A stretch of DNA of 64,000 nucleotides, from NCBI GenBank assembly GCA_963751455.1, contig CAVVUN010000012.1:480001-544000 (forward strand). The letters run 5' to 3'. Source of the DNA: Nitrospirota bacterium. Lineage in GTDB: Bacteria > Nitrospirota > UBA9217. Both the position numbers and the translations under genes were made by a program. Below the pieces are notes generated by a model that saw only the letters and a program-made list of their open reading frames with translations, ran no database searches and was not told the origin of the DNA. Positions 427 to 1,870 of this stretch are shown here, piece by piece. Position 1 is the stretch's first letter. Every line of letters starts with the position of its first letter.

Positions 427-982
427 CTATTTTATTCTTTGCGATATCTTCTTAAACTCCTCGGATCCTGCAACTTTAAGCAGCTGGAAAAGCACGGTCT
501 CGGTGCAGGTTATTGCAGCGCCGGCATCCCGCATGTAATCAAGCCCGGCCCGCCGGTTTTCCTCGGTCCTGGAACAGACCGCATCCTGTACCACGTGCGG
601 CATGAACCCGTCCTGCAGCAACCCGATTGTGGTTTGGAGCACGCAGATATGGGTTTCCATGCCGGCTGACGATCACTTTTTTTCTGTTTATCCTGCTGAT
701 CTCCGCAAGGAATGACGGCTCACCGCAGCAATTAAAGGCAATTTTCTCGACTGGCCGGTAACCCGGCATGACGGCCTGCAGTTCGGGGACTGTCCTCCCG
801 AGCCCCTTCGGGTACTGCTCGGTAACAACCACAGGGATTTTGATCATCTTCGCGAGTTCGATAAGGTGCAGGCAATTCTTTATGACTTGTTCCCTTTCCT
901 TCATGACGACTGCGAGTTTGTCCTGTATGTCGACAATGAGAAGTACCGCATCTTCCCTATCGAGCAAATATTTTTTATCCAA
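427..982 (-). CDS. Isochorismatase-family (YcaC-like) cysteine hydrolase, split by a 1-nt frameshift near 665
   Basis: LLIVDIQDKL, TEQYPKGLG and K(I)AFNC in ORF 539..1165; GMETHICVLQT...DAVCSR in ORF 427..660. TTG start at 982 after AAGGAG. Confidence 0.85.
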
Positions 983-1082: not shown

Positions 1083-1099
1083 GCCGGCACCCTGCCGGT
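1083..1099 (-). promoter_or_regulatory. Candidate bacterial SECIS for the second UGA
   Basis: Minus strand CCGGCA-GGG-TGCCGG hairpin about 11 nt after the UGA. Confidence 0.65.
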
Positions 1100-1100
1100 T

Positions 1101-1316
1101 CTATACCCCTCAGGAACCGCCGTAGCCGACCGACACCTTGCCATCCTCGACGATAACCGGAACATTGCGCTCGCCTTCGGAAAAACGGAGCATCTCTTCG
1201 AGTTTGGCGGCTTCGACTTTCACATCGATATACTCCGCATTTGATCCATAGGCTTCACGAGCCTTTATGGTGTAGGGTCAGCTCTGCTTCCCGTAGATAA
1301 TCACTTTGCTTGCCAT
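1101..1316 (-). CDS. UXX-star family glutaredoxin-like selenoprotein with two in-frame UGA (Sec) codons, 71 aa
   Basis: AAGGAGG RBS, ATG 1316: MASKVIIYGKQS-U-PYTIKAREAYGSNAEYIDVKVEAAKLEEMLRFSEGERNVPVIVEDGKVSVGYGGS-U-GV*. UGA at 1278-1280 and 1110-1112, each followed by a hairpin. Confidence 0.88.
1245..1271 (-). promoter_or_regulatory. Candidate bacterial SECIS for the first UGA
   Basis: Minus strand CCATA-A-AGGCT-CGTGA-AGCCT-ATGG hairpin starting about 8 nt after the UGA, with G in the apical loop. Confidence 0.6.
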
Positions 1317-1523
1317 GGCGCCCTCCTTTTTCGATATATTACTATATTAGCAAACGGAAATGATTTGCGATAGATCGGAAATTATAACTGCGAACAAATT
1401 GAGGCCTATTTTCCTAATAGTACGAATAGGGGATTTAAAAAACCACAAGTGAGCTGGTCTCGGAGCGGGGATATAGCAATGGGAACACTGTAAGGTCCAC
1501 GGGAGCAAAAGCCGTTTCCCGCT

Positions 1524-1838
1524 TCATCCGAACTTCAGTTTTTTCAGCAGCAGCGTGGAGAGAAGGTGGCTCTTTCCCTCTTCCTTTTGGACCAGCAGGT
1601 AAAAATCACAGGACGTACAGCTTATGTGTTTCCTGGCGAATGAGCCCTGCACTTCTCCCCCGCACAGGGTGCCTGCAATCACCCAGCACGCGCGGCCGGC
1701 GTTTTTACCGTCGTGAACGCTGTTAAGCCGGACCTCGCTTGAGACCGGACAGGCGCCGAGCTCTTTCTCGGTGGCCCCTCCCGGCTCCCTGCCGCATTTC
1801 TTGAATTCCCAACAGTTCAGTTTGGTTGTTTCCATGCT
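1524..1838 (-). CDS. Small Cys-rich two-CW-domain protein
   Basis: NCWEFKKCGREPGG...CP...GRACWVIAGTLCGGEVQG...CTSCDFY. Confidence 0.75.
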   Translation of the reverse strand, partial: SMETTKLNCWEFKKCGREPGGATEKELGACPVSSEVRLNSVHDGKNAGRACWVIAGTLCGGEVQGSFARKHISCTSCDFYLLVQKEEGKSHLLSTLLLKKLKFG

Positions 1839-1870
1839 CATTGTCCCCCTCAATGGGCTGATTCTTGAGT

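What the first reader, a model, noticed from the sequence alone, without database searches (positions are those of the whole stretch)
1083..1316. Hidden 71-aa selenoprotein with two UGA-Sec codons, each with its own SECIS-like hairpin
Seen: a strong RBS and ATG, a glutaredoxin-like frame with UGA at the first redox position (U-P-Y-T, compare CPYC) and a second UGA three residues from the end (GGS-U-GV-stop). A G-looped hairpin follows each UGA. It is absent from the ORF track because the UGAs split it. Known: this matches the UXX-star (seleno)protein pattern; dual-Sec bacterial proteins are uncommon and this family's function is unknown. It lies upstream of an isochorismatase and a thioredoxin/AhpF-like gene, suggesting a redox module (inference).
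Basis: partly seen in the sequence, partly recalled or inferred. Interest (0 to 1): 0.7.

Follow-up and report, generated by a model that had tools for sequence, protein, structure and literature searches.

The report
Known two-selenocysteine glutaredoxin-like gene
This is a real, easily missed small gene that likely makes a 71-residue redox protein with two selenocysteines, but it is an ordinary member of an already catalogued, biochemically untested family (UXX-star selenoprotein family 1).

Summary
Observation confirmed, on the minus strand: RBS, ATG 1316, 71 codons with UGA at 13 and 69, TAG 1103-1101. The protein scores 110.6 bits on NCBIfam NF041114 (UXX-star selenoprotein family 1; cut-off 72), which a 2026 review lists as UxxT with 2 Sec, so two Sec is the family norm. 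The genome has selA, selB, selD and two tRNA-Sec. 72 of 301 genomes of the phylum carry the gene; 66 of those 72 have selA. Neither hairpin is beyond chance in this window alone; across homologues both are (51/75 and 71/77 versus about 12 and 7) and the first covaries. Cys homologues exist for both sites. Added here: the sites behave unequally. Site 13 often reverts to Cys and then loses its hairpin (8/62); site 69 stayed UGA in all ~173 genes read as DNA. The isochorismatase/TrxR-fusion neighbours occur only in the window's own family, so the 'redox module' is weakly supported. Likely function: glutathione-independent oxidoreductase cycling a Se-Se/Se-S bond between the two sites (inferred). 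The scan found this family twice before on other DNA.

The parts
1322..1327 (-). Shine-Dalgarno AGGAGG, 5 nt before the ATG
   Evidence: sequence; an SD-like 4-mer precedes 68 of 77 homologues (no chance control)
1101..1316 (-). UXX-star selenoprotein family 1 gene, 71 aa plus TAG
   Evidence: NF041114 110.6 bits vs cut-off 72; Pfam Glutaredoxin 29.5 vs 22.9
1278..1280 (-). UGA codon 13, predicted Sec at the glutaredoxin nucleophile position (U-P-Y-T)
   Evidence: UGA in 75 and TGC in 2 of 77 homologues; 68 distinct Cys-13 genes from metagenomes
1246..1270 (-). predicted SECIS 1, inside the coding region: upper stem 1264-1260/1254-1250, loop CGUGA
   Evidence: 51/75 homologues pass vs 11.9 +/- 3.1 in synonymous recodings; 95.4% of cells paired, 28 double changes vs 7.7; 8/62 in Cys-13 forms
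1110..1112 (-). UGA codon 69, predicted Sec of the C-terminal G-G-S-U-G-V-stop (UXX*) motif
   Evidence: UGA in 77/77, 68/68 and 29/29 genes; next two codons vary mostly synonymously and a stop follows in 75/77; Cys in distant members
1084..1098 (-). predicted SECIS 2, just 3' of the true stop: 6-bp stem, loop GGG
   Evidence: 71/77 vs 6.8 +/- 2.4 in shuffles and 83/1058 ordinary UGA stops of this genome; 62/62 and 29/29 in further sets

Best explanation
The locus is an intact member of UXX-star selenoprotein family 1: both UGA codons are likely read as selenocysteine with the help of the hairpin behind each, giving a 71-residue protein with a predicted glutaredoxin fold that likely works as a glutathione-independent thiol/selenol oxidoreductase. 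Shown: gene anatomy, family membership, Sec genes in the genome, conserved and covarying hairpins, Cys/Sec exchange at both sites. Inferred: U13 is the classical nucleophile (U-x-x-T, no resolving Cys). The last helix of glutaredoxins is replaced by a glycine-rich tail carrying U69, which would fold back and resolve U13, forming a Se-Se bond (Se-S in the Cys-13 forms). The bond would be re-reduced by a thioredoxin-reductase-type flavoprotein, in this lineage plausibly the fusion protein two genes downstream. The substrate is unknown. About 0.95 for the dual-Sec family-1 gene, about 0.55 for this catalytic cycle.
For: NF041114 110.6 bits, cut-off 72. selA 605.8 bits, selB 373.4, selD 234, all over cut-off; two tRNA-Sec over the Rfam gathering score. 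66 of 72 gene-carrying genomes have selA against 150 of 301 overall; families with no selA hit have no above-cut-off member. UGA-69 is followed by synonymously varying Gly-Val codons and a mixed TAA/TAG/TGA stop. Hairpin statistics and covariation; hairpin 1 falls to background when codon 13 is Cys while hairpin 2 stays (8/62 vs 62/62). Both sites are C or U in every gene parsed at DNA level, and C/C in distant members. AlphaFold2 model (U as C), pLDDT 86.7, matches glutaredoxins (TM 0.74 to 3GRX) and has no helix after residue 45. No gshB, gshA-type ligase (PF04262) or bshC found in this genome, 100% complete by markers.
Against: No expression or proteomic evidence. The model output gives no U13-U69 distance, and confidence drops at the C-terminal end (68 for the last block). 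The window's own hairpins are not significant alone. Hairpin 1 passes the strict test in only 9 of 23 Sec-13 genes of a second phylum, against 1 of 6 Cys-13 genes. The reductase neighbour is absent outside one taxonomic family. selD is split by a frameshift in this assembly. 6 of 72 carriers had no selA hit (86-98% complete drafts). The review suggests metal binding instead.
Confidence: 0.6

Rival explanations
1. Same dual-Sec protein, but U13 and U69 act as two soft ligands that bind or hand on a metal or metalloid (Hg, As, Cu, Se) or an Fe-S cluster instead of cycling a diselenide.
For: [quoted passage not shown] NCBIfam has a HUGP/GUXX-star fusion model. Strong retention of Sec at site 69 would fit a ligand role.
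Against: No metal-resistance gene family stood out among the recurring neighbours (clusters judged by eye, short flanks). Glutaredoxin nucleophile position and the Val-Pro motif are invariant.
Confidence: 0.27
2. Only UGA-13 is recoded; UGA-69 is the true stop and the protein is a 68-residue single-Sec glutaredoxin.
For: Databases hold many Cys-13 forms that end at residue 68 (44 of 122; 91 of 150 representatives end at this site). Readthrough of bacterial Sec codons is often partial (recalled), so a 68-mer may be a by-product.
Against: The codon is TGA in every gene read as DNA, whereas the stop three codons later is TGA 31, TAG 22, TAA 22; only 35 of 1059 ordinary UGA stops in this genome have an in-frame stop three codons on; conserved hairpin; Cys at this column in four proteins over the family cut-off. 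The database ends are what gene callers produce at a UGA.
Confidence: 0.04
3. A dedicated three-gene module: the selenoprotein, the isochorismatase-like hydrolase and the PDO-TrxR fusion act in one pathway (for example keeping the hydrolase's catalytic cysteine reduced).
For: Same strand and order in 39/43 and 36/43 loci of the window's family; no terminator-like site found between 900 and 1550.
Against: 0 of 34 loci from other families and phyla and 0 of 109 further loci have either neighbour; related genomes are not independent.
Confidence: 0.2

Closest known systems
UXX-star selenoprotein family 1 (NCBIfam NF041114; 'Distant Grx-like protein 1' in PMC13188914 Table 1 and PMC9312934)
   Same: Over cut-off across the whole model (positions 1-70 of 70); UxxT motif; two Sec; Sec third from the C-terminus.
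   Different: Nothing substantive. 59% identical to a record named UXX-star selenoprotein family 1 from Pelotomaculum propionicicum (P0095).
Other Uxx-star models (NF041212 subfamily; NF041211 family 2; NF047338 family 3; NF045501 fusion)
   Same: Over the cut-off of the umbrella model NF041212 (78.9 vs 66); shared C-terminal UXX* motif.
   Different: Far below the cut-offs of families 2 and 3 and of the fusion (46.2/100, 44.7/97, 48.1/325).
Glutaredoxin 3 / NrdH / YruB-type redoxins
   Same: Fold (TM about 0.7), nucleophile position, Val-Pro motif.
   Different: No second Cys (UxxT), no C-terminal helix, below all their NCBIfam cut-offs; no glutathione synthesis genes found in the genome.
C-terminal Sec tail of mammalian thioredoxin reductase (recalled, not tested)
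   Same: Sec near the end of a short glycine-rich tail.
   Different: Unrelated fold; an analogy only.

Membership tests
[quoted passage not shown] | HMM score over the curated cut-off, full length | tested here: met
   110.6 bits vs 72, model 1-70/70
[quoted passage not shown] | UxxT motif and two Sec (PMC13188914 Table 1) | tested here: met
   U-P-Y-T at 13-16, second UGA at 69
[quoted passage not shown] | Sec followed by two residues and a stop | tested here: met
   U-G-V-TAG; stop at that place in 75/77 homologues
Bacterial selenoprotein gene | selA, selB, selC, selD in the genome | tested here: met
   selD is frameshifted in the assembly
Bacterial selenoprotein gene | bSECIS model as given in PMC13188914: loop 3-9 nt with G in the first two places, stem 4-16 bp, 16-37 nt from UGA, MFE at most -7.5 | tested here: met
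   hairpin 1: 18 nt, CGUGA, 5 bp upper stem, -8.1 with lower stem (-4.9 upper stem alone); hairpin 2: 17 nt, GGG, 6 bp, -8.6. bSECISearch itself was not run
Bacterial selenoprotein gene | Cys homologues aligned to each UGA | tested here: met
   site 13: 68 + 2 + 6 genes with TGC/TGT; site 69: database proteins P0136, P0170, P0182, P0207 over the NF041114 cut-off, their DNA not seen
Bacterial selenoprotein gene | Selenium shown in the protein | not testable with these tools
   needs 75Se labelling or MS
Classical dithiol glutaredoxin (Grx3, NrdH, YruB) | CxxC motif and family cut-off | tested here: not met
   UxxT; 29.8/90, 15.4/85.75, 30.8/88.55 bits
UXX-star families 2 and 3 | HMM cut-off | tested here: not met
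   46.2/100 and 44.7/97

The most novel reading that the evidence does not exclude
The catalytically decisive residue of this family is not the glutaredoxin-position Sec but the C-terminal one: a selenol on a flexible tail that stays Sec almost everywhere while site 13 flips to Cys and drops its SECIS. The 71-residue protein would then be a minimal natural bacterial enzyme cycling an intramolecular diselenide, recharged without glutathione by a dedicated PDO-TrxR fusion, with natural U/U, C/U and C/C variants that make the question 'what does a second Sec buy' directly testable.
Probability: 0.35. Interest if true: 0.5.

Novelty: new member of a known kind. Interest (0 to 1): 0.18.

Why it matters
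For annotation: a widespread gene (72 of 301 genomes in the window's phylum, 36 of 201 in a second phylum) is missed, cut at codon 68 or misread with Trp by standard gene callers. For biology the single gene adds little to a catalogued family. The useful point is the natural series U/U, C/U, C/C with matching gain and loss of the first SECIS, a compact system for testing diselenide chemistry and double Sec insertion in bacteria. My seven paper searches showed no biochemical study of the family, but the paper that defined the UXX-star names (Haft and Tolstoy 2025) was not held, so it may already describe the asymmetry.

Tried and rejected
Plus-strand reading of 1083-1316: first translation tried, not the gene. 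Folding energy as evidence for the hairpins: not significant. Promoter/terminator scan 900-1550: none found. Rfam found nothing on the gene locus L020 at E up to 0.5. No protein-language-model atlas result is available for this protein. Haft and Tolstoy 2025 (mSystems) is not held and was not read. The GOS paper cited by the review for this family (PMC2398784) did not contain 'distant Grx' in its main text (passages; supplements not looked at, they may hold it). BSepDB paper PMC13326102 had none of my five terms. No complex prediction was run: an enzyme with its presumed reductant seen in one lineage was not worth the job. Chance frame, pseudogene or TGA=Trp code rejected: family-wide conservation, and 1059 long ORFs of this genome end in TGA.

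Full report
Observation. The feature lies on the minus strand. AGGAGG (1327-1322) precedes ATG 1316; reading TGA as Sec gives 71 residues with U13 in S-U-P-Y-T and U69 in G-G-S-U-G-V, then TAG 1103-1101. Table-11 ORF calling lists nothing in this frame. A stem-loop follows each UGA: loop CGUGA 18 nt after the first, loop GGG 17 nt after the second. Both fit the bacterial SECIS model as summarised in PMC13188914 (passages read). Taken alone they are not beyond chance: z-scores -0.23 to 0.64, and 229 of 2000 synonymous recodings of the first region pass the same test.

Identity. With U scored as C the protein gives 110.6 bits on NCBIfam NF041114, UXX-star selenoprotein family 1 (cut-off 72), and 78.9 on the umbrella model NF041212 (cut-off 66); it is below the cut-offs of families 2 and 3 and of all classical glutaredoxin models. 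Table 1 of PMC13188914 lists NF041114 as 'Distant Grx-like protein 1', motif UxxT, 2 Sec, among predicted selenoproteins (passages); PMC9312934 lists the same family (passages). The family and its two Sec are therefore catalogued.

Machinery. The genome has selA (605.8 bits), selB (373.4) and selD (234, with its own in-frame TGA), all over cut-off, and two tRNA-Sec genes over Rfam's gathering score. selD is split by a frameshift in this assembly, as is the isochorismatase gene next to the finding; both are probably assembly slips, which I could not check against reads. Three loci from same-family genomes are identical in protein to records titled Nitrospirota, so the window is probably from that phylum (inference).

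Distribution. 72 of 301 genomes of the phylum have a match over the cut-off and 150 of the same 301 have selA; 66 of the 72 have selA, and the 6 without are 86-98% complete drafts in families that otherwise carry it. Families with no selA hit have no above-cut-off member. Related genomes are not independent, so no test statistic is given. In a second phylum (that of an Acidobacteriota record) 36 of 201 genomes are over the cut-off, all with one or two in-frame TGA (this tally includes G327, flagged unpublished).

Both UGAs are under selection as sense codons. Of 81 rows, 4 rows from two frameshifted loci were dropped, leaving 77 distinct genes including the window. Codon 13 is TGA in 75 and TGC in 2; codon 69 is TGA in 77 of 77; the next two codons are Gly (71) and Val (73) with all four third bases used; a stop follows in 75 of 77 and is TGA 31, TAG 22, TAA 22. 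Only 35 of 1059 ordinary UGA stops of long ORFs in this genome have an in-frame stop three codons later. A strict hairpin test (stem of 5 or more pairs, G in the first two loop bases, loop 16-24 nt after UGA) passes behind site 13 in 51 of 75 genes against 11.9 +/- 3.1 (maximum 21) in 200 synonymous recodings, and behind site 69 in 71 of 77 against 6.8 +/- 2.4 in shuffles and 83 of 1058 ordinary UGA stops. The first stem is 95.4% paired over 74 distinct rows with 28 double changes against 7.7 in shuffles (0 of 500); slid registers reach at most 65.9%.

The two sites are unequal. A metagenome scan whose pattern demanded Cys at 13 found 271 relatives, of which 80 were kept, giving 68 distinct genes. 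Site 69, unconstrained by the pattern, is UGA in all 68 (62 parsed by script, 6 read by eye). In the 62 parsed genes the hairpin behind site 13 is at background (8) while that behind site 69 is kept (62). In 29 of the 30 second-phylum loci (the unpublished one left out) 23 are U/U and 6 C/U; hairpin 2 passes in 29 of 29, but hairpin 1 in only 9 of 23 U forms and 1 of 6 C forms, a weaker result. In about 173 genes read as DNA (77 + 68 + 28; overlap checked only for one duplicate) none has Cys at 69, nor do 122 close database proteins. Cys at 69 does exist further out: 14 of the best 150 cluster representatives by script (2 doubtful by eye; 91 end at the site, 15 have Trp, 30 unclear), and 4 of 5 tested pass the family-1 cut-off. 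Their DNA was not seen; they come from ENA, Logan, JGI and NCBI gene calls.

Neighbourhood. Downstream on the same strand lie an isochorismatase-family gene (about 982-427) and a 545-aa fusion of a protein-disulfide-oxidoreductase domain (CPYC) to a thioredoxin-reductase domain, below the cut-off of each named model. These follow the gene in 39 and 36 of 43 loci from the window's own family but in 0 of 34 loci from other families and phyla and 0 of 109 further loci with flanks up to 1.5 kb. This is lineage-restricted gene order; it allows but does not show a shared pathway.

Mechanism. The AlphaFold2 model from a 75-sequence alignment (U as C; pLDDT 86.7, pTM 0.70) has a glutaredoxin fold without the last helix and matches solved glutaredoxins (TM 0.74 to 3GRX; sequence matches). 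Invariant columns include U13, P14, T16, V52, P53, G64 and U69. No gshB, PF04262 gshA or bshC was found in the genome. I infer a glutathione-independent oxidoreductase in which U13 attacks a substrate and U69 on the glycine-rich tail resolves it, with re-reduction by a TrxR-type enzyme (about 0.55). The tools gave no U13-U69 distance, so the bond is untested. The main rival is metal or metalloid binding by the two selenols, suggested for the family in PMC13188914.

Literature seen. PMC13188914, PMC9312934, PMC2398784, PMC13326102 and bioRxiv 10.1101/2022.07.06.499078: term passages only. Seven searches listed no experimental study of the family; 'UXX-star' occurs in one held paper. Haft and Tolstoy 2025 was not held. 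Two earlier findings of this scan reached the same family assignment on other genomes.

Verdict. Real, correctly read by the first stage, and a new member of a known family. Interest 0.18.

Noticed in passing
window 427-982 (-), break near 665: The isochorismatase-family gene is split by a one-base frameshift; same-family homologues are mostly intact at about 185 aa. Probably an assembly error.
   Followed up: partly
G000:C2:129959-130880 (+), L007/L008: selD carries its own in-frame UGA (C-A-G-U-A-S-K) and is split by a frameshift in this assembly.
   Followed up: partly
G000:C13:3951-4041 (-), L183: A second, divergent tRNA-Sec (54.2 bits; first copy 63.2) on a 9.4-kb contig directly after a yedF selenium-metabolism gene and a rhodanese-like gene. 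Could be a second selC, a variant tRNA, or contamination (5.37%).
   Followed up: partly
window 1524-1841 (-): A two-CW domain protein gene (NF045718, 109.6 bits) lies upstream; in 35 homologous loci a divergent sigma-factor-like/anti-sigma-like pair (named by eye from sequence) sits there instead.
   Followed up: no
L022, L078, L083, L085, L099: Five of 77 homologues have an extra Cys four residues before the C-terminal Sec (G-C-G-G-x-U), giving three chalcogen residues.
   Followed up: no
one same-family locus: The downstream PDO-TrxR fusion has UPYC instead of CPYC in 1 of 34 motif matches, a further probable selenoprotein.
   Followed up: no
protein databases: 76 of 122 close database relatives have Trp at both sites, apparently from gene callers switching to a TGA=Trp code on short contigs; 44 are Cys-13 forms cut at residue 68.
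   Followed up: yes
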